DNA from: a virus | Taxonomy: Duplodnaviria; Heunggongvirae; Uroviricota; Caudoviricetes | Virus record (IMG/VR): IMGVR_UViG_2778261691_000003 | Coordinates: 1-19,783 of that record | Reading direction: 5' to 3' (one strand) | Length of the DNA stretch: 19,783 nucleotides | In this document: in pieces, positions 1-4,693 of the stretch | Layout of the letters: each line of letters starts with the position of its first letter | How positions within the stretch are numbered: the stretch's first letter is position 1 | Notes under the pieces: model-generated | Databases searched by the model: none | Told to the model about the DNA's origin: nothing | The model's input: the letters and a program-made list of their open reading frames with translations, nothing else | Program-made: the position numbers and the translations under genes

Positions 1-323
1 GGTCCAACTGAGCCCCATTTCACGGGATTTTTCGGTAATACCATTCTCCCGATTGCCCCAGCGTTCCATAATCCAGTGGATCCACTCCTCCTGCTTAGGG
101 AAGAGTAAAAACGGAATGGTCACCGGCAGGCCATAATCAATATTACGCGGGTCCGTTGTCATGCCCCAGTCGATGATGAACTGAGCCGGATTAGTTCGGT
201 AAAACTGTTTTAGTGCAGGCAATATTTCAGGATTCTGGCGAATGCGCTGTAGGCGTTCCATCCGCCATTCAAAAACCATCTGGTAATCAGGATGTTTAAA
301 ATCGAAGGGGAATGGTAACGGCA
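1..323 (-). CDS. putative terminase large subunit, N-terminal fragment (continues beyond window start)
   Basis: Minus-strand ORF starting at ATG 321-323, 3 nt after the small-terminase stop, and running off the window. My translation begins [32 protein letters not shown]. Called from gene order only (terS then terL); family not verified. Confidence 0.45.
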
Positions 324-326
324 TAC

Positions 327-881
327 TTAGCCCATTATTTTTCTATACGCCTCTGCAGCCTGCTCCGGCGTTAAGTTGGTAATTTCTGTTCTGACTGGTC
401 CTCCGTCAGCACCAGTCACTTCATTTTTGACATTGTCTTTAAACGCCTGAACAGAAACATGACGCCCGAGCAACTCAAGGTTTTTAACCTTATCAGGCCA
501 TTTGATTTTCTTCAGGAGAGCAGCACTATCTGCTGATGCCATCTCGACGACATCCATTCCTGATAGCGTTGTACGCCACACCTTAGGCCAGTCTTTAATC
601 GGCTTCAGTTCGCCATTGGCAAGCAGAATGTCAAGCACGTCCATCTGATCGATTTCAATCAGCCGTCGCAATACATAGGCAGCGTCTATACCTACCTCTT
701 CATTGCGTTCAGCCTTTAGCTCAGCAATGCGATCTGCTATGTCAGGTTTTGACAGGTTCTCGCTACCAGTGGCGCGAGCAGTTTTTTCGCTGTAACCCGC
801 CCTGATAGCTGCCTGAGTGGCGTTTAAATCTTTCAGGTACTCACGGGCAAACAGCTCTTGTTTGTCTGTGAGCTTTGCCAT
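327..881 (-). CDS. terminase small subunit (P27/Terminase_2-like)
   Basis: 184 aa ORF; N-terminus [52 protein letters not shown] matches the conserved HTH region of phage small terminase subunits as I recall them; ATG at 879-881. Confidence 0.8.
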
Positions 882-984
882 TGTTGGCTCCGTTTATCCG
901 TTAAAAGGGATATCAGTTAAGTTATCCCGTGTAGGGTATAAGCCATTATCAAAGCCACTCTATAGGGAATGGCTTTTGTAATAA

Positions 985-1365
985 CTACTGTTCGCTTAGC
1001 TTCTGCTTCAGCAAGTAACCTTCGAGCATCCAGATTTTGTTTACAGCATTTTGCCGGGCAATCTTCCGACCAATTTCTGCATCAAAGTTTTCCGGGCTTG
1101 CACAGGCGCTCTCTCCGGTGACGGTGAAGCCATTCTTCAGCACCAGTACGCAGAAAGTGAGCAACTTCAATGGTGATAAATCACGATCGCCTTCTTCTGG
1201 TTTTTCCCTGCCACAATATTCGTTGCTGGAAATGGCACCATTTCGTCCATCATAAGCAGTAAAGTAATGCTCGCTTTTAATCACGTCTTCGATGTGCTGC
1301 GGGGTGATTCGCGGTGCCGTTTGGCCTTTCTCAACGATTTCTTTTTCGATTTGCTGGTCGTTCAT
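985..1365 (-). CDS. Gp49-like phage protein (Phage_gp49_66-like family), function unknown
   Basis: 126 aa ORF with ATG at 1363-1365; sequence pattern recalled from hypothetical proteins found between lysis and packaging genes in lambdoid and Sf6-like phages. Confidence 0.55.
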   Translation of the reverse strand: MNDQQIEKEIVEKGQTAPRITPQHIEDVIKSEHYFTAYDGRNGAISSNEYCGREKPEEGDRDLSPLKLLTFCVLVLKNGFTVTGESACASPENFDAEIGRKIARQNAVNKIWMLEGYLLKQKLSEQ

Positions 1366-1595
1366 AATTATGACCCTGTGGAGTGGTTGCTTGATTAGGA
1401 TGTCTTTCCATCAGTCCGCCACCACAAAGAATCTTTTTTGCCATAAGGCTGGAGGTTCATCTTTCAGTGGCTGCCAGTGTTATTTCCCCACTTACTGGCT
1501 TGGGTTGTTTCGCTGTACTGCCGTAACTGGTTGCCCAGAATAAATCCCGGTTTCATTATCAAGCCCACCCGTAGATAGGCTTTGTAATAACATCT

Positions 1596-2120
1596 TCAAT
1601 TAATCAGCAGTTCAGGCTGTGTCACCTGCAAGATGTATTCATGCTCGACAGCCAGGACACGCTTCTCTTTCTTCCGTTCGTTCATTAACCGACTGCCGAT
1701 CGTGCCTTTCAGCTTTGAGCGTGTTTCTTTGATGGCGTAGCGGTGCTGCATTTCTTCGCCAATTGCCATGCGGCGGCTCAGTTGCTCTGCCATCCAGTTG
1801 AATGCTGCGATATAGCTCTCCTTGATTGCCGCAGCAGCTTTCCCGGTGAACCCCATCACAACCATGATCCAGCCATCTTTCGTCAGGCTGTACATCGGGC
1901 GAACCTTGCCCTGTTCATCGATATAATCAGCCGACGCAAAATTGCGTTGGCTAAACTCACGCGAGCAATCAGCCTTAACCCGCTCGATTTTCCTGAGAAC
2001 ATCACCGTGCCGCTTGCCGAAGTACTTGGCAATTTTTCTGGATGTGGTAACGACCTCTCCGTTTTTGGCTTGCACCATTTCTCGGAAGTCGAAGGCTGGA
2101 ATAACTGAATGATTATTCAT
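1596..2120 (-). CDS. rha: Rha-family phage regulatory protein (antirepressor-like)
   Basis: ORF track gives 1596..2189; I place the start at the internal ATG 2118-2120 (MNNHSVIPAFDFREMVQAKNGEVVTTSRKIAKYFGKRHGDVLRKIERV), preceded by AAGG; this N-terminal region is typical of Rha proteins. Confidence 0.8.
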   Translation of the reverse strand: MNNHSVIPAFDFREMVQAKNGEVVTTSRKIAKYFGKRHGDVLRKIERVKADCSREFSQRNFASADYIDEQGKVRPMYSLTKDGWIMVVMGFTGKAAAAIKESYIAAFNWMAEQLSRRMAIGEEMQHRYAIKETRSKLKGTIGSRLMNERKKEKRVLAVEHEYILQVTQPELLIN

Positions 2121-2267
2121 AGCGTCTTTACCTTTTAGAAAGATGAGCCTGTTCGCACAGAAAAGCCGCCCCGAGATGGTCGCCACCATATACGGCAGTT
2201 CTCAGGCTCAGCTTTCTGAAAGACTCGGGATTGTTACGCGCTGCGATGCGCGGTTTACTGCAGATAT

Positions 2268-2291
2268 AAAAAAGCCCCGCGAATGCGAGGC
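2268..2291 (-). terminator. rho-independent terminator candidate downstream of lysis cassette
   Basis: On minus strand: stem GCCUCGC, loop AUUC, stem GCGGGGC (7 bp including one G-U), followed by UUUUUU (plus 2268-2273 is AAAAAA). Confidence 0.55.
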
Positions 2292-2465
2292 TAAATCCTG
2301 GTGTTTGTAATGACTGGCTCTTATCTCAACGCAGCCCCTTACCGCGCGCCATATGCTTAACTTCAAGCATCAGCAATGAGATGTTTAATCTGGATTCACT
2401 CCAGAAGTGATCACCACCCTGTCTACAGAGCCAGATGTGAAGGATGATGAGTAAAATTATCGCTA

Positions 2466-2933
2466 TCATCGAGGGCATTGCGTCCTGATGTATTCCTGAA
2501 GCGTTCTCAGTGCTGTTTGGTCGCGGATAATTCCGTCCCGGACACCGAGAACGTTTCGTCCAGCAACTGGAGAGAGTTCGACGGTGGCATCATTGCCCAT
2601 GCCGGAGGCGCCGGAGGTTTCGGCTGAGGATGGCACAGGGCATTTTCCTTTGACGAGCACCCTGCCACCATTATCAAGCTTGCGCCGAAGAGCATCATTT
2701 TCAGCTTTCGCATCAGCTAACTCCTTCGTGTATTTAGCATCAAGTGCATCAGCATCACGCTGGCGCTGCTGCATGTCAGTAATGGTGGCAGTCGCCTGCT
2801 TCAGCTCACTGACTTTTTTATCGCGCTGCTCTTTGTAGGTAATGGCGTTATCACGGTAATGATTAACAGCCCATGACAGGCAGACGATGATGCAGATAAT
2901 CAGAGCGGAGATAATCGCGGTTACTCTGCTCAT
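2466..2933 (-). CDS. Rz: Rz i-spanin (inner-membrane spanin component)
   Basis: 155 aa; N-terminus [34 protein letters not shown] is near-identical to lambda Rz as recalled; the C-terminal half diverges. Start overlaps the R stop. Confidence 0.85.
2507..2713 (-). CDS. Rz1: Rz1 o-spanin lipoprotein, embedded in the +1 frame of Rz
   Basis: 68 aa ORF lying wholly inside Rz in another frame; [21 protein letters not shown] has a lipobox (VAGC) and is followed by a proline-rich stretch [11 protein letters not shown], as in lambda Rz1. Confidence 0.8.
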
Positions 2934-3406
2934 ACCTCAATCTCTCTGACCGTTCCGCCTGCTTCTTTAAATTTTGCAATCAGGCTGTCAACTTTATGCT
3001 CGAACTGACCATAACCAGCGCCCGGCAGTGAAGCCCATATATTGCTGCAACGATCGATAGCCTGACGGATATCACCGCGATCAATCATCGGTAAAGCGCC
3101 ACGCTCTTTAATCTGTTGCAGTGCCACAGCGTCCTGGCTTTTAGGAGAGAAGTCTTTCAGGCCAAGCTGCTTACGGTAGGCATCCCACCAACGGGAAAGA
3201 AGCTGGTAGCGCCCGGCGGCTGTTGATTTGAGTTTGGGGTTTAGCGTGACAAGTTTGCGAGGGTGATCGGAGTAATCAGTGAATAGCTCTCCGCCTACAA
3301 TGACGTCATAACCATGATTTCTGGTTTTCTGCCGTCCGTTATCAGTTCCCTCCGACCACGCCAGCATATCGAGGAACGCCTTACGTTGATTATTGATTTC
3401 CACCAT
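2930..3406 (-). CDS. R: endolysin R (lytic transglycosylase)
   Basis: 158 aa; [52 protein letters not shown] is essentially the lambda R sequence as recalled. Confidence 0.95.
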
Positions 3407-3713
3407 CTTCTACTCCGGCTTTTTTAGCAGCGAAGCGTTTGATAAGCGAACCAATCGAGTCAGTGCCGATGTAGCCGATGAACACGCTCGTTATATAAGC
3501 GAGATTACTACTTAGTCCGGCGAAGTCGAGAAGGTCACGAATGAACCAGGCGATAATGGCGCACATCGTTGCGTCGATTACTGTTTTTGTAAACGCACCG
3601 CCATTATATCTGCCGCGAAGGTACGCCATTGCAAACGCAAGGATTGCCCCGATGCCTTGTTCCTTTGCCGCGAGAATGGCGGCTAACAGGTCATGTTTTT
3701 CTGGCATCTTCAT
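3390..3713 (-). CDS. S: holin/antiholin S (dual-start S107/S105)
   Basis: 107 aa; [62 protein letters not shown] matches lambda S including the Met1-Lys2-Met3 dual start; upstream DNA ...CCCCTTATTGGGGGTAAGAC-ATG is lambda-like. Confidence 0.95.
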
Positions 3714-3955: not shown

Positions 3956-4031
3956 TGGTGCTGGTTAACGGACTTGAACCGCTACCCATTCGCTTACAAG
4001 GCGACTGCTCTACCATTGGAGCTAAACCAGC
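3956..4031 (-). tRNA. tRNA-Thr (anticodon UGU), phage-encoded
   Basis: 76-nt minus-strand sequence GCTGGTT TA GCTC CAATGGTA GAGC A GTCGC CTTGTAA GCGAA TGGGT AGCGG TTCAAGT CCGTT AACCAGC A CCA. Perfect 7-bp acceptor stem, 4-bp D stem, T-loop TTCAAGT, encoded CCA; anticodon loop CUUGUAA gives UGU. Confidence 0.75.
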
Positions 4032-4036
4032 ATGTT

Positions 4037-4111
4037 TGGCGGGACAGCGTGGGCTCGAACCACGATAAGAAGGTTAACAGCCTTCCGTAATGACCTTTAT
4101 ACGACTGACCC
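4037..4111 (-). tRNA. tRNA-like gene, possibly tRNA-Asn (anticodon GUU), atypical
   Basis: 75 nt: GGGTCAG TC GTA TAAAGGTCAT TAC G GAAGG CTGTTAA CCTTC TTAT CGTGG TTCGAGC CCACG CTGTCCC G CCA. Perfect T arm and anticodon stem, but one U-U mismatch in the acceptor stem and only a 3-bp D stem; lies 5 nt upstream of the tRNA-Thr. Confidence 0.45.
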
Positions 4112-4157
4112 AAATAAAAAAAGCCACCGTTGCAACTTAAGAGTCACTAACGGCAGC
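4112..4157 (-). terminator. terminator-like hairpin plus U-tract between Q and the tRNA pair
   Basis: Minus-strand GCUGCCGUU...AACGGUGGC (9 bp with two G-U, 17-nt loop) followed by UUUUUUUAUUU; the large loop lowers confidence. Confidence 0.3.
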
Positions 4158-4174
4158 TTACCTTCTAATTATGG

Positions 4175-4693
4175 CTAAATGGATAATTGCATGTCAAGGC
4201 TTTTAACAGCAACATGCTTAACTTTCTCAACACGTTTACGCATTTTGAAAGCATTTTGCATTGGCTGGTACAAAACAAATAACGACGCTTTCAGGATGTC
4301 GTCAATTTCGTTTCTACAGGTTGCCAGTGAAGGTTTTCTACATCCCTCGCCACCACGTCCACACATCTTGCGTGGCTTTGCAGTCGCGTGATAGTAGGAT
4401 GCAATTGCTCGCTTAGATGAACCATGAGCGTAGTAGCTGAGGAGGATGCCAAAGGCTTTCTTGTCAATGTACATGACGGAATCGACGACCTGAGAAATCA
4501 ACATTCCATCATCATCATTGCACATTGGCCTTGTCATAACTCTTCCCGGCTCTACGCTCTCCATGAACTTCGCTATTACGCTGCTCATGCGCTTTTCCAG
4601 ACGACCTGAATAAACCCATGCGCCCCACAGTTCAAGCCAGCCATTCAGCCACTCATGCTGTTCTTTGGTGAGGTTTAGTTCTCTTATGCCCAC
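4175..4693 (-). CDS. Q: late-gene antiterminator Q (non-lambda type; phage-82/21-like Q family)
   Basis: 172 aa with the WLELWGAW motif recalled from the Phage_antitermQ family; sits between ninI and the lysis genes; GTG start at 4693 preceded by GGGAGAAGG; overlaps the ninI stop by 10 nt. Confidence 0.7.

What the first reader, a model, noticed from the sequence alone, without database searches (positions are those of the whole stretch)
943..2313. Moron-like block (Rha antirepressor and Gp49-like gene) between the lysis cassette and the terminase
Two genes unrelated to lysis or packaging (Rha-family regulator 1596-2120; Gp49-like 985-1365) sit between Rz and the small terminase subunit, each followed by its own non-coding spacer. 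A good minus-strand terminator (2268-2291) lies between Rz and rha, which would need Q-mediated read-through for late transcription to reach the terminase. Rha-family proteins are antirepressor-like regulators; a Rha gene carried in the late region is a candidate anti-immunity or inter-phage conflict function.
Basis: partly seen in the sequence, partly recalled or inferred. Interest (0 to 1): 0.45.

Follow-up and report, generated by a model that had tools for sequence, protein, structure and literature searches.

The report
Late-operon accessory slot: Rha plus anti-CBASS sponge
Between the lysis and DNA-packaging genes, this lambda-like prophage carries a swappable cargo slot that here holds a P22-type Rha regulator and a member of the recently described Acb4 family of proteins, which soak up bacterial CBASS alarm nucleotides; the layout is known, and the only real puzzle is a near-invariant non-coding stretch between the two genes.

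Summary
On the minus strand, between Rz (2466-2933) and the small terminase (327-881), lie a Rha-family gene (1596-2120), a Gp49/Sf6-gp66-family gene (985-1365) and a strong hairpin-plus-U-tract terminator (2267-2292).

- **Position of rha:** this is where rha sits in the P22 and ES18 records. The protein has no antirepressor domain.
- **Likely anti-immunity gene:** it is the Gp49-like gene. PF13876 is the Acb4 anti-CBASS sponge family. The window protein is 98% identical to Sf6 gp66, which that family's authors list, and its model matches SPO1 Acb4 (PDB 9E4W).
- **Variable slot:** 43 sampled relatives show 19 architectures in one fixed gene order. Slot 1 holds Rha, KilA-N, T5orf172, Tad2-like or nothing. 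Acb4 is present in 11 of 43.
- **Expression:** no promoter-like site faces either gene. The terminator lies upstream of rha and travels with slot-1 cargo. The rha leader has a covariation-supported fold that covers its ribosome-binding site. Expression is therefore most likely Q-dependent and late.

The "spacers" are not empty. They hold three ATTACAAA-plus-hairpin linkers and a 126-nt non-coding block of unknown function, found in 21% of complete E. coli genomes. Overall this is a new member of a known kind.

The parts
4100..4205 (-). Context: late promoter pR' (hexamers within 4168-4197), qut and tR' leader terminator. This is the start of the Q-dependent late transcript that runs leftwards through the block.
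   Evidence: Promoter scan gives TTGACA-18-CATAAT, 11 of 12 matches. The region is 98% identical to the Sf6 region annotated as a phage-21-like pR'/qut/tR'. The Q gene lies at 4175-4693 (PF06530).
2466..2933 (-). Rz i-spanin (Rz1 embedded at 2507-2713). Last lysis gene and upstream boundary of the slot.
   Evidence: PF03245 at 2e-29; phrog_13 at 5.5e-75.
2326..2478 (-). orf50: small ORF with a hydrophobic N-terminus, homologue of Sf6 gene 65. It overlaps the end of Rz by 13 nt and is optional among relatives.
   Evidence: phrog_11822 at 3.2e-37 over the full length. Annotated in Sf6, phiv205-1 and E. coli prophages. Present in 22 of 43 sampled loci. Frameshifted in L005.
2304..2311 (-). Linker copy 1: ATTACAAA junction motif, 14 nt after the orf50 stop. 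In Sf6 and WS4437A, which lack rha, the sequence after this motif continues directly into hairpin A.
   Evidence: ATTACAAA occurs 5 times in the window against 0.83 expected, with 0 of 200 shuffles reaching 5. Three copies lie on the minus strand in this slot, each just after a stop codon. Junction comparison.
2267..2292 (-). T1: intrinsic terminator (AGCCUCGC-AUUC-GCGGGGCU followed by UUUUUU) at the 5' edge of the slot-1 cassette.
   Evidence: -14.1 kcal/mol, z = -4.9. The stem is invariant and the loop variable in 8 relatives. A T1-like hairpin is found in 33 of 37 loci with slot 1 occupied and in 0 of 6 with it empty.
2121..2266 (-). Structured 5' leader shared by rha and kilA-N genes. The outer helix (2203-2226 paired with 2122-2151) covers the AAAAGG ribosome-binding region (2131-2136).
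   Evidence: The leader is shared by Rha and KilA-N loci and, in diverged form, by ES18 and HK97; P22 keeps only its 5' part. RNAalifold gives 40 pairs, 13 with changes on both sides against 3.4 ± 1.5 in shuffles (0 of 500). 92.7% of cells are paired, against 54% or less when partners are slid. Single-sequence fold z = -3.0. Coordinates.
1596..2120 (-). rha: Rha-family DNA-binding regulator (174 aa), homologue of P22 orf201 and ES18 gene 79. This is the slot-1 cargo.
   Evidence: PF09669 at 2e-28; TIGR02681 at 5.5e-33; phrog_518 at 2.6e-78. 37% identity to P22 Rha over residues 10-154.
1558..1590 (-). Linker copy 2: TTATTACAAA, then hairpin A (9-bp stem, loop UACG, a UNCG-type loop on my reading), then UUGAUAAUG. 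There is no U tract.
   Evidence: -13.5 kcal/mol, z = -4.3. Stem changes among copies keep sense-strand pairing (U-G to C-G). A variant linker in L024/L045 swaps C-G to G-C and A-U to C-G while keeping the flanks. The hairpin also occurs alone in Stx phages.
1399..1524 (-). B core: 126-nt near-invariant non-coding block of unknown function. Two ultra-conserved stretches lie at 1465-1493 and 1399-1442.
   Evidence: 94-99% identical even where the downstream Acb4 protein is only 74-75% identical, and present without that gene. Most columns of this block are at least 90% conserved in 147 unique copies. 193 phage records. 1123 of 5426 complete E. coli genomes, nothing annotated under it in most listed rows, elsewhere only the abutting rha CDS. 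Not coding. No Rfam hit.
1366..1398 (-). Segment C: the acb4-proximal leader, found when B is followed by this gene. In the single-sequence fold it pairs with the 3' part of B.
   Evidence: Discrete end points of similarity at core positions 190 and 223. Fold.
985..1365 (-). acb4 homologue (Gp49/Sf6 gp66 family, 126 aa): predicted cyclic-dinucleotide sponge acting against CBASS. This is the slot-2 cargo.
   Evidence: PF13876 at 3.4e-35. PF13876 is the Acb4 family. 98% identical to Sf6 gp66 (Q716B1) in that paper's Table S3. phmmer and profile hits to 9E4W at 0.0068 and 1.2e-4. AF2 model pLDDT 85.5. The top 13 Foldseek PDB hits are all 9E4W chains, probability 1.00, target-normalised TM 0.60-0.69.
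945..984 (-). Linker copy 3: TTATTACAAA, then a 10-bp hairpin, then UUGAUAAU, starting 2 nt after the acb4 stop.
   Evidence: -14.2 kcal/mol, z = -4.7. It shares the flanks GTTATTACAAA and GGCTT(T)GATAATG with copy 2 but has a different loop.
882..944 (-). Leader of the next gene. In Sf6 and relatives this sequence precedes the DUF2560 gene; here it abuts the small terminase start.
   Evidence: Matches to Sf6, HK620 and others run to query position 2125, which is window 876, at the terS start.
327..881 (-). Small terminase subunit (Terminase_2 type). Downstream boundary of the slot.
   Evidence: PF03592 at 8.9e-40.

Best explanation
This is the accessory-cargo slot of a phage-21/Sf6-type late operon. 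It sits between the lysis cassette and the packaging genes.

**Layout.** Cargo is arranged as cassettes in a fixed order: orf50, then slot 1 (here rha), then a non-coding block B, then slot 2 (here an acb4 homologue), then the next gene. The cassettes are joined by short ATTACAAA-plus-hairpin linkers. These are plausible sites for homologous exchange between phages.

**Transcription (inferred).** The genes are read as part of the late message from pR'. Q-modified RNA polymerase reads through terminator T1. Unmodified polymerase stops there, so the cargo downstream stays silent in the lysogen.

**Translation of rha (inferred).** It is additionally gated by a conserved leader fold that pairs with its ribosome-binding site.

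**Gene products.**
- The Rha protein is a DNA-binding regulator of the P22 orf201 type. Its real role is unknown.
- The Gp49-like protein most likely assembles into a tetramer and sequesters CBASS cyclic dinucleotides (3'3'-cGAMP and relatives). It would be made together with the virion proteins. That would stop the host's CBASS effector from aborting the infection.

**Shown here:** gene identities, Acb4 family and fold membership, variability of the slot, conservation of T1, covariation in the rha leader.

**Inferred:** Q-dependent read-through, late-only expression, nucleotide binding and the anti-CBASS effect of this particular protein, and any role of the linkers and of block B.
For: **Gene identities:**

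**Acb4 assignment:**
- PF13876 is named as the Acb4 family. Eight of eight purified homologues bound 3'3'-cGAMP, and SPO1 Acb4 let an engineered T4 escape a CBASS operon.
- Sf6 gp66, 98% identical to the window protein, is in the authors' family table.
- Sequence and profile hits to PDB 9E4W.
- The AF2 model has pLDDT 85.5. Its 13 best PDB matches are all 9E4W chains, and the next hit has E = 0.08.
- Homologues 71-73% identical are fused to Tad2 (PF11195) and Sequestin (PF21825) domains. Such fusions are how further sponges were found.

**Slot as an accessory and anti-defence site:**
- Annotated relatives carry different cargo.
- 19 architectures in 43 loci, always in the same order. Slot 1 holds Rha in 19, KilA-N in 11, both in 2, T5orf172 in 3, Tad2-like in 2, and is empty in 6. 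Acb4 is present in 11.
- Tad2-like proteins occupy slot 1 in phage Huey and in the L020 group.
- The experimentally studied accessory gene pid lies just downstream of the B block, between rha and the DUF2560 gene, in BTP1 (and, from the published coordinates, in P22).
- Acb4 genes also occur at other sites in other phages.

**Expression:**
- pR'-qut-tR' is 98% identical to that of Sf6.
- T1 is strong and conserved.
- T1 is present in 33 of 37 loci with slot 1 occupied and in 0 of 6 with it empty.
- No promoter-like site faces rha or acb4.
- The leader structure has 13 compensatory pairs, with 0 of 500 shuffles reaching that number.

**Linkers:**
Against: - No experiment bears on this particular protein. 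The text does not say whether any of the eight tested Acb4 homologues belongs to the enterobacterial clade.
- Three ligand-contact positions of SPO1 Acb4 differ here (E49 to T81, Y57 to A89, T70 to I102). The ligand range cannot be read off, and loss of binding cannot be excluded.
- The structural match is moderate (query-normalised TM 0.46-0.48, rmsd 4-6 Å), partly because of a 30-residue N-terminal extension and an insert.
- Promoter absence rests on a consensus scan only. Weak promoters exist in this region of P22: the pid promoter has an eroded -10 box.
- The leader covariation rests on 8 sequences, and the structure was derived from the same alignment.
- Late timing for an anti-CBASS protein is plausible but untested.
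Confidence: 0.72

Rival explanations
1. One reading: Rha is an antirepressor-like, anti-immunity or inter-phage-conflict protein, carried as an independently regulated moron. It might, for example, induce or interfere with heteroimmune prophages.
For: - Several PHROG families that match the Rha domain are labelled anti-repressor.
- The slot is variable and also holds P22_AR_N antirepressor-type and KilA-N proteins in relatives.
- Literature describes phi80 and P22 Rha as blocking phage growth in IHF-defective hosts, so the protein does interfere with phage development in some settings.
Against: - Only the N-terminal Phage_pRha DNA-binding domain is detected. No ANT/KilAC-type domain is present.
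- No promoter-like site lies upstream.
- A terminator and an RBS-sequestering leader precede the gene. That points to tight, late-only expression rather than expression from the prophage.
- P22 and ES18 carry rha at the same position.
- The literature search found no report of antirepressor activity for this type of Rha.
Confidence: 0.12
2. The Gp49-like protein of this enterobacterial clade is not a CBASS sponge. [quoted passage not shown] That could be binding another nucleotide signal or RNA.
For: - Three of the SPO1 ligand-contact residues are replaced.
- The protein has an extra N-terminal helix region and a variable insert (residues 40-65) that SPO1 Acb4 lacks.
- The Acb4 authors note extensions in some homologues that may add functions, and note the structural kinship to dsRNA-binding domains.
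Against: - All eight homologues tested by those authors bound 3'3'-cGAMP, including ones from Gram-negative hosts.
- The ENF(D/N)xEIGR segment and the F80, F94 and I98 equivalents are kept and are invariant or nearly so in the clade.
- Close homologues are fused to Tad2 or Sequestin sponge domains.
- A Tad2-like gene sits in the neighbouring slot in relatives.
Confidence: 0.15
3. The conserved non-coding pieces (linkers and block B) have no function of their own. They would be homology patches kept uniform by frequent recombination among lambdoid phages, that is, the 'boundary sequences' of the modular-exchange model.
For: - Similarity starts and stops at discrete points at the edges of these pieces.
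- Cargo on either side is exchanged freely.
- The element is confined to enterobacterial phages that recombine often.
- Variation in B is too low to test a fold, and the fold z-scores are modest.
- The boundary-sequence model is established in the literature.
Against: - In the same set of copies, the adjacent 83 nt (hairpin A plus linker) has 33 polymorphic sites. The 108 nt of B have 6, and all 6 fall in positions predicted unpaired.
- Within B, substitutions cluster in two short stretches and leave 29-nt and 44-nt runs almost untouched.
- The hairpins keep sense-strand pairing through G-U and compensatory changes.
- Recombination alone does not explain why B always keeps one orientation and one position.
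Confidence: 0.4

Closest known systems
Bacillus phage SPO1 Acb4 (anti-CBASS 4; PDB 9E4W) and the PF13876 family, including Sf6 gp66 and N4 gp49
   Same: - Same Pfam family, well above the cut-off.
- Predicted fold matches 9E4W and nothing else convincingly.
- The conserved ENF..EIGR segment and three hydrophobic ligand contacts are kept.
- 98% identical to Sf6 gp66, which is listed in the family table.
- Phage-borne, small, single-domain.
   Different: - 126 aa against 96, with an N-terminal extension and a variable insert.
- Only about 24% identity to SPO1 Acb4.
- Three ligand-contact residues differ.
- Binding, tetramer formation and CBASS escape are untested for this clade.
- It sits in a temperate phage's late operon rather than in a virulent Bacillus phage.
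P22 rha (orf201) / ES18 gene 79 / phi80 rha
   Same: - Same family (PF09669, TIGR02681).
- Same position directly after the Rz/Rz1 genes.
- Same upstream terminator hairpin (GCCTCGC...GCGGGGC followed by a T run).
- 37% identity to P22 Rha over nearly the full length.
   Different: - 174 aa against 201.
- Sequence is diverged.
- P22's leader is shorter.
- The Rha phenotype (growth block in IHF-deficient hosts) has not been tested for this allele.
P22 pid locus and other late-region 'morons' of lambdoid phages
   Same: An accessory gene inserted between the lysis and packaging genes of P22-like phages, present in some relatives and absent in others.
   Different: - pid is on the opposite strand and has its own weak promoter, a long 5' UTR and its own downstream terminator (PMC8835761).
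- rha and acb4 here are co-oriented with the late operon.
- They show no promoter-like site.
- They have a terminator upstream rather than downstream.
Boundary sequences of lambdoid phages (modular-exchange model; the Sf6 record annotates 'bsq' features)
   Same: Short sequences conserved at module junctions, lying exactly at gene boundaries, with different cargo on either side.
   Different: - The linkers here are structured: ATTACAAA, then a stable hairpin, then TGATAATG.
- They occur three times in one slot.
- They keep RNA-type pairing on the late strand, which suggests a transcript-level role as well.
- I could not check whether these particular linkers were among those originally described.

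Membership tests
Acb4 anti-CBASS sponge (PF13876, Phage_gp49_66) | Matches the family profile above the curated cut-off | tested here: met
   120.8 bits against a gathering score of 27, E = 3.4e-35, full profile length 1-82.
Acb4 anti-CBASS sponge (PF13876, Phage_gp49_66) | Fold of the solved founding member (SPO1 Acb4, 9E4W): helices flanking a three-stranded sheet, with a long C-terminal helix | tested here: met
   AF2 model pLDDT 85.5, pTM 0.75. The top 13 Foldseek PDB hits are all 9E4W chains, probability 1.00, target-normalised TM 0.60-0.69, about 100 aligned columns; the next hit has E = 0.08. The profile hit to 9e4w_A has E = 1.2e-4.
Acb4 anti-CBASS sponge (PF13876, Phage_gp49_66) | Conservation of the ligand-contact residues of SPO1 Acb4 (K36, F48, E49, V56, Y57, F62, N63, I66, T70, K81) | tested here: inconclusive
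   From the phmmer alignment: F48 to F80, F62 to F94 and I66 to I98 are kept. N63 to D95 involves a backbone contact in SPO1. V56 to C88. E49 to T81, Y57 to A89 and T70 to I102 differ. K36 and K81 fall outside or at the edge of the aligned stretch.
Acb4 anti-CBASS sponge (PF13876, Phage_gp49_66) | Homotetramer with four inter-subunit pockets | not testable with these tools
   Only a monomer could be predicted. The authors report that all eight modelled homologues form tetramers.
Acb4 anti-CBASS sponge (PF13876, Phage_gp49_66) | Binds 3'3'-cGAMP or other CBASS signals and rescues phage from CBASS | not testable with these tools
   Needs biochemistry and plaque assays. Literature: eight of eight homologues bound 3'3'-cGAMP.
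Rha family (PF09669 / TIGR02681), P22 orf201 type | Phage_pRha domain above the curated cut-offs | tested here: met
   99.3 bits against 29.9; 113.3 bits against 45.95.
Rha family (PF09669 / TIGR02681), P22 orf201 type | Located in the late operon just after the Rz/Rz1 genes | tested here: met
   Same order in the P22, ES18, BTP1 and phiv205-1 records.
Rha family (PF09669 / TIGR02681), P22 orf201 type | Rha phenotype: inhibits phage growth in IHF-deficient hosts | not testable with these tools
   Known for phi80 and P22 from the literature as cited in PMC4936722.
Phage antirepressor (Ant-type) | Antirepressor C-terminal (ANT/KilAC) or P22_AR-type domain | tested here: not met
   No such Pfam or NCBIfam domain at E ≤ 0.01. 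Only Phage_pRha is found. A P22_AR_N protein does occur within the ±2.5-kb flank of the B block in a few relatives.
Moron (insertion with its own promoter and terminator, expressed from the prophage) | Present in some relatives and absent from others at the same site | tested here: met
Moron (insertion with its own promoter and terminator, expressed from the prophage) | Own promoter upstream of the gene | tested here: not met
   No sigma-70-like site faces rha or acb4 in 850-2500 at strict or relaxed thresholds. The only minus-strand hit (2140-2112) ends inside rha. This is a consensus scan only; weak promoters are not excluded.
Moron (insertion with its own promoter and terminator, expressed from the prophage) | Own terminator downstream of the gene | tested here: not met
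   T1 lies upstream of rha. The hairpins after rha and acb4 have no U tract.
Moron (insertion with its own promoter and terminator, expressed from the prophage) | Expressed in the lysogen | not testable with these tools
   Needs RNA-seq or reporter fusions.
Intrinsic (Rho-independent) terminator | G+C-rich hairpin followed directly by a U tract on the transcribed strand | tested here: met
   8-bp stem with 6 G-C pairs, 4-nt loop, UUUUUU; -14.1 kcal/mol. Stem conserved in 8 relatives. Termination itself is not testable here.

The most novel reading that the evidence does not exclude
The 126-nt block B (1399-1524), with its flanking hairpin linkers, is an undescribed functional RNA element of enterobacterial lambdoid late operons. 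It could be a stable RNA processed out of the late message, or a cis-acting leader that controls whichever cargo gene follows it.

- It is near-invariant and non-coding.
- It is always in one orientation and one position.
- It is present in about a fifth of complete E. coli genomes and in P22, HK97, HK022, Sf6, ES18 and ST64T.
- It is absent from Rfam, and nothing is annotated under it in most of the records listed.

Together with Acb4 and Tad2-like cargo in the adjoining slots, it would mark an organised anti-defence cassette array in the late operon.
Probability: 0.3. Interest if true: 0.6.

Novelty: new member of a known kind. Interest (0 to 1): 0.42.

Why it matters
- **Annotation.** It puts a likely function on a gene that RefSeq still calls "Gp49 family protein" in E. 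coli, Shigella and Salmonella prophages. That function is an anti-CBASS nucleotide sponge.
- **Anti-defence hot spot.** In these phages the stretch between the lysis and packaging genes is a cassette site where anti-defence cargo collects. Acb4 sits in one slot here, and Tad2-like proteins sit in the neighbouring slot in relatives. This is useful for finding further counter-defence genes by position.
- **Correcting the Rha reading.** A late-region Rha is not a sign of something unusual.
- **Testable leads.** There are three: a covariation-supported leader that masks the rha/kilA-N ribosome-binding site; a terminator that travels with slot-1 cargo; and a widespread, unannotated, near-invariant non-coding block.

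Tried and rejected
- **Rfam.** A scan of the whole window at gathering thresholds found only the two tRNAs. A permissive scan of 800-2600 gave one chance-level hit (AbsR28, E = 0.92) over the terminator.
- **Coding potential of block B.**
  - The sense ORF 'MAKKIL...' loses its start codon or is frameshifted in many copies. The 118-aa ST64T orf-118 is a read-through into the DUF2560 gene.
  - No frame on either strand shows an excess of synonymous or third-position changes.
  - Stop-creating changes occur in five of the six frames.
  - 13 of 147 unique copies carry indels.
  - The 83-aa plus-strand ORF 1292-1543 has no Pfam or PHROG match.
  - An antisense 19-codon hydrophobic ORF behind an AGGAGG was considered and dropped for the same reasons.
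- **B as a base-pairing RNA.** No complementarity longer than 11 nt to the rest of the window, which is chance level.
- **B or hairpin A as a promoter.** The spacing between the TTACAA and GATAAT motifs is 21-25 nt and varies between copies (my reading of the sequences).
- **Structure of B.** RNA fold z-scores are only -2.4 (sense) and -1.75 (antisense). Variation is too low for a covariation test.
- **Divergent copies of B.** nhmmer found none in the 26 fetched loci that lack the element.
- **Species-representative genome scan.** Only 8 hits: E. coli, Shimwellia, and MAG contigs assigned to unrelated phyla, which are probably mis-binned.
- **PADLOC and NCBIfam for the Gp49-like protein and orf50.** Nothing.
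- **Literature.**
  - No demonstrated antirepressor role was found for this type of Rha.
  - No description of block B was found. The ε34 and phage L papers do not discuss it.
  - The BTP1 transcriptome paper lists eight unnamed ncRNAs, but their positions are only in a figure.
- **pid terminator.** It was considered as an explanation for B and rejected. It lies next to the pid ORF, well away from B.


Full report
**1. What is there**

The window is part of a lambdoid, P22/Sf6-like prophage whose late genes lie on the minus strand. In order they are:
- Q antiterminator, 4175-4693 (PF06530)
- tRNA-Asn and tRNA-Thr, 3956-4111
- holin, 3390-3713
- endolysin, 2930-3406
- Rz, 2466-2933, with Rz1 embedded
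- the block in question
- small terminase, 327-881 (Terminase_2)

A promoter-like site matching 11 of 12 consensus positions lies at 4197-4168. The 106 nt around it are 98% identical to the stretch that the Sf6 record annotates as a phage-21-type late promoter, qut site and tR'.

- The Rha gene (1596-2120) scores far above the Pfam and NCBIfam cut-offs.
- The Gp49-like gene (985-1365) scores 120.8 bits against a cut-off of 27 for PF13876.
- The terminator (stem 2273-2292, U tract 2267-2272) folds at -14.1 kcal/mol with z = -4.9.

It overlaps the end of Rz and matches phrog_11822 over its full length. It corresponds to Sf6 gene 65.

**2. Is the block variable?**

Yes. No phage record and no complete E. 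coli genome holds more than 80% of the 2.7-3 kb around the block in one piece. Yet 5092 of 5426 genomes match parts of it.

Annotated relatives show different cargo between Rz and the terminase:

| Relative | Cargo between Rz and terminase |
|---|---|
| S163-2 | Rha |
| WS4437A-1 | gene 65-like, Gp49 |
| E308 | KilA-N, Gp49, HNH |
| E89 | KilA-N, a hypothetical gene |
| Rb-23 | Rha, then three opposite-strand genes (one LPO_1073-family) and a pseudogene |
| Sf6 | genes 65, 66, 67, 68 |
| HK97 | KilA-N, hypothetical gene, HNH |
| P22 / BTP1 | Rha, ORF25 or pid, DUF2560 |

I also took a sample chosen without regard to either gene: 43 viral contigs that contain the conserved block B with 2.5 kb on each side.
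- They show 19 architectures, always in the same order.
- Slot 1 holds Rha in 19, KilA-N in 11, both in 2, a T5orf172 protein in 3, a Tad2-like protein in 2, and nothing in 6.
- The Gp49-like gene is present in 11.

**3. The Gp49-like gene is an Acb4 homologue**

A full-text search for PF13876 found two preprints that equate this Pfam family with Acb4, the anti-CBASS 4 sponge. Chang et al. (bioRxiv 10.1101/2024.12.30.630793) report the following:
- SPO1 Acb4 is a 96-residue protein that forms a tetramer and binds four molecules of 3'3'-cGAMP.
- It lets an engineered T4 escape a CBASS operon.
- All eight purified homologues bound 3'3'-cGAMP.
- Homologues from phages of Gram-negative hosts also bound 3'3'-cAA but not cGG.

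Evidence that the window protein belongs to this family:
- Their Table S3 lists Sf6 gp66 (Q716B1). It differs from the window protein at 2 of 126 positions.
- The window protein hits PDB 9E4W directly (E = 0.0068) and as a 37-sequence profile (E = 1.2e-4).
- An AlphaFold2 model (pLDDT 85.5) finds 9E4W chains as its 13 best PDB matches. Probability is 1.00 and target-normalised TM is 0.60-0.69. The next hit has E = 0.08.
- Homologues 71-73% identical occur fused to Tad2 and Sequestin sponge domains. That is the same kind of fusion the second preprint used to discover new sponges.

Family and fold membership are therefore met. Ligand contacts are only partly kept: F48, F62 and I66 equivalents are retained, while E49, Y57 and T70 are replaced. 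The ligand range of this clade is open, and binding itself is inferred.

The gene is mobile in its own right. In other phages it sits between Q and the holin, or beside the portal and terminase genes.

**4. Rha**

The window Rha is 37% identical to P22 Rha across nearly its whole length. It occupies the same place as P22 rha, ES18 gene 79 and BTP1 rha.

The literature, as cited in PMC4936722, calls rha (orf201) a late-operon gene of P22 whose product blocks phage growth in IHF-deficient hosts. A Rha gene in the late region is therefore usual, not an oddity.

No antirepressor-type domain is detectable. The literature search turned up no demonstrated antirepressor role for this type. Its true function remains unknown.

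The same slot holds KilA-N, T5orf172 and Tad2-like proteins in relatives; a P22_AR_N-type protein also occurs nearby in a few loci, in a position I did not check. That is compatible with a conflict-related role but does not show one.

**5. How the block is probably expressed**

Neither a strict nor a relaxed sigma-70 scan finds a promoter-like site facing rha or the acb4 homologue.

The terminator T1 lies upstream of rha.
- Its stem is invariant and its loop varies in eight relatives, including P22, ES18 and HK97.
- A T1-like hairpin is present in 33 of 37 sampled loci with slot 1 occupied and in none of 6 with it empty.
- It persists when the cargo is Tad2-like.

T1 therefore looks like the 5' edge of slot-1 cassettes.

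The roughly 150 nt between T1 and the start codon are shared by rha and kilA-N genes.
- They fold into a long hairpin whose outer helix (2203-2226 with 2122-2151) covers the AAAAGG ribosome-binding region.
- Across eight sequences, 13 of 40 pairs show changes on both sides, against 3.4 ± 1.5 in shuffles (0 of 500).
- 92.7% of cells are paired, against at most 54% when the partners are slid.
- The sample is small and the structure came from the same alignment, so this is supportive rather than conclusive.

My reading is that only Q-modified polymerase reaches the cargo, and that Rha translation is further gated. This is inference from lambdoid late-operon biology plus the anatomy above.

**6. 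The 'spacers'**

*Linkers.* Three copies of ATTACAAA lie on the minus strand, each just after a stop codon: orf50, rha and acb4. The window has 5 copies against 0.83 expected. Each is followed by a stable hairpin of -13.5 to -14.2 kcal/mol.
- Copies 2 and 3 share the flanks GTTATTACAAA and GGCTT(T)GATAATG but have different loops.
- Another variant, in L024 and L045, keeps the flanks while swapping C-G to G-C and A-U to C-G in the stem.
- Where rha is absent (Sf6, WS4437A), the sequence after the first ATTACAAA runs straight into hairpin A.

These behave like the boundary sequences of the modular-exchange model. Pairing is preserved on the late strand, so a transcript-level role such as a processing or stability signal is also possible.

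*Block B.* Between hairpin A and the acb4 leader lies block B (1399-1524).

Conservation and distribution:
- It is 94-99% identical in relatives whose Acb4 protein is only 74-75% identical.
- It occurs without that gene.
- In 147 unique copies, most columns of this block are at least 90% conserved.
- The adjoining 83 nt have 33 polymorphic sites, against 6 in the 108 nt of B.
- It is in 193 phage records, including P22, HK97, HK022, Sf6, ST64T, ES18 and CUS-3.
- It is in 1123 of 5426 complete E. coli genomes, with nothing annotated under it in most listed rows and only the abutting rha CDS in the others.
- It always lies after slot 1 and before slot 2.

What it is not:
- It does not look coding.
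- It has no Rfam match.
- It has no promoter-like site.
- It has no target-like complementarity elsewhere in the window.

I could not establish its function. It is the one really unexplained feature here.

**7. Comparison with what is known, and verdict**

The layout is the known one of P22-like and HK97-like phages.
- rha is a member of the P22 orf201 family.
- The Gp49-like gene is a member of the Acb4 family, whose Pfam name derives from its Sf6 homologue, gene 66.
- The region is already known to hold accessory loci such as pid.
- The classical moron definition is met only for variability, not for own promoter or own downstream terminator.

What this analysis adds:
- The functional reading of the Gp49-like gene.
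- The observation that anti-defence cargo (Acb4, Tad2-like) collects in adjoining slots.
- The cassette linkers.
- The terminator that travels with slot-1 cargo.
- The rha/kilA-N leader fold.
- Block B.

I rate the finding as a new member of a known kind, of moderate interest. The residual novelty is concentrated in the non-coding block.

Noticed in passing
window 1399-1524 (minus strand): 126-nt near-invariant non-coding block ('B'). It is found in 193 phage records (P22, HK97, HK022, Sf6, ES18 and others) and in 21% of complete E. coli genomes. Nothing is annotated under it in most listed records, and it has no Rfam match. Its function is unknown.
   Followed up: partly
window 2326-2478 (minus strand): Unreported 50-codon ORF with a hydrophobic N-terminus, overlapping the end of Rz by 13 nt. 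It is a homologue of Sf6 gene 65 (phrog_11822), is present in about half of relatives, and is frameshifted in one.
   Followed up: partly
window 2121-2266 (minus strand): The 5' leader is shared by rha and kilA-N genes. Its covariation-supported long hairpin covers the ribosome-binding site. It may be a translational control element.
   Followed up: yes
window 2304-2311, 1581-1588, 975-982 (minus strand), with the adjoining hairpins: Three copies of an ATTACAAA-plus-hairpin linker, each just after a stop codon. They mark the cassette junctions, and stem pairing is kept across variants.
   Followed up: yes
L004 2227-2727 (phage Huey); L020 group, ORF at about 1618-2097 of the extracted region: In close relatives the slot that holds rha here holds a Tad2-like (PF11195, anti-Thoeris) protein. 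It lies next to the same B block and an Acb4 homologue.
   Followed up: partly
proteins P0091 and P0099 (homologues): Homologues 71-73% identical to the window Acb4 protein are fused to Tad2 (PF11195) or Sequestin (PF21825) domains.
   Followed up: no
window 1558-1590; phage records H121-H130: The first 35 nt of the linker (hairpin A) also occur on their own, 94-100% identical, in Stx2 phages and in mEp043/mEp213-type phages.
   Followed up: no
window 3956-4111 (minus strand): tRNA-Asn(GUU) and tRNA-Thr(UGU) lie directly after the late promoter leader, as in Sf6 and phage 21.
   Followed up: no
window 1-3000: This exact combination of modules (orf50, Rha, B, Acb4, then a Terminase_2-type small terminase with no DUF2560 gene) was not found as one piece in any phage record or complete E. 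coli genome. The closest is E. coli E423, where rha is frameshifted.
   Followed up: partly
L005 1770-3535: In E. coli Rb-23 the slot carries three opposite-strand genes, including an LPO_1073/Vpar_1526-family protein with no Pfam match. This looks like a different kind of cargo.
   Followed up: no
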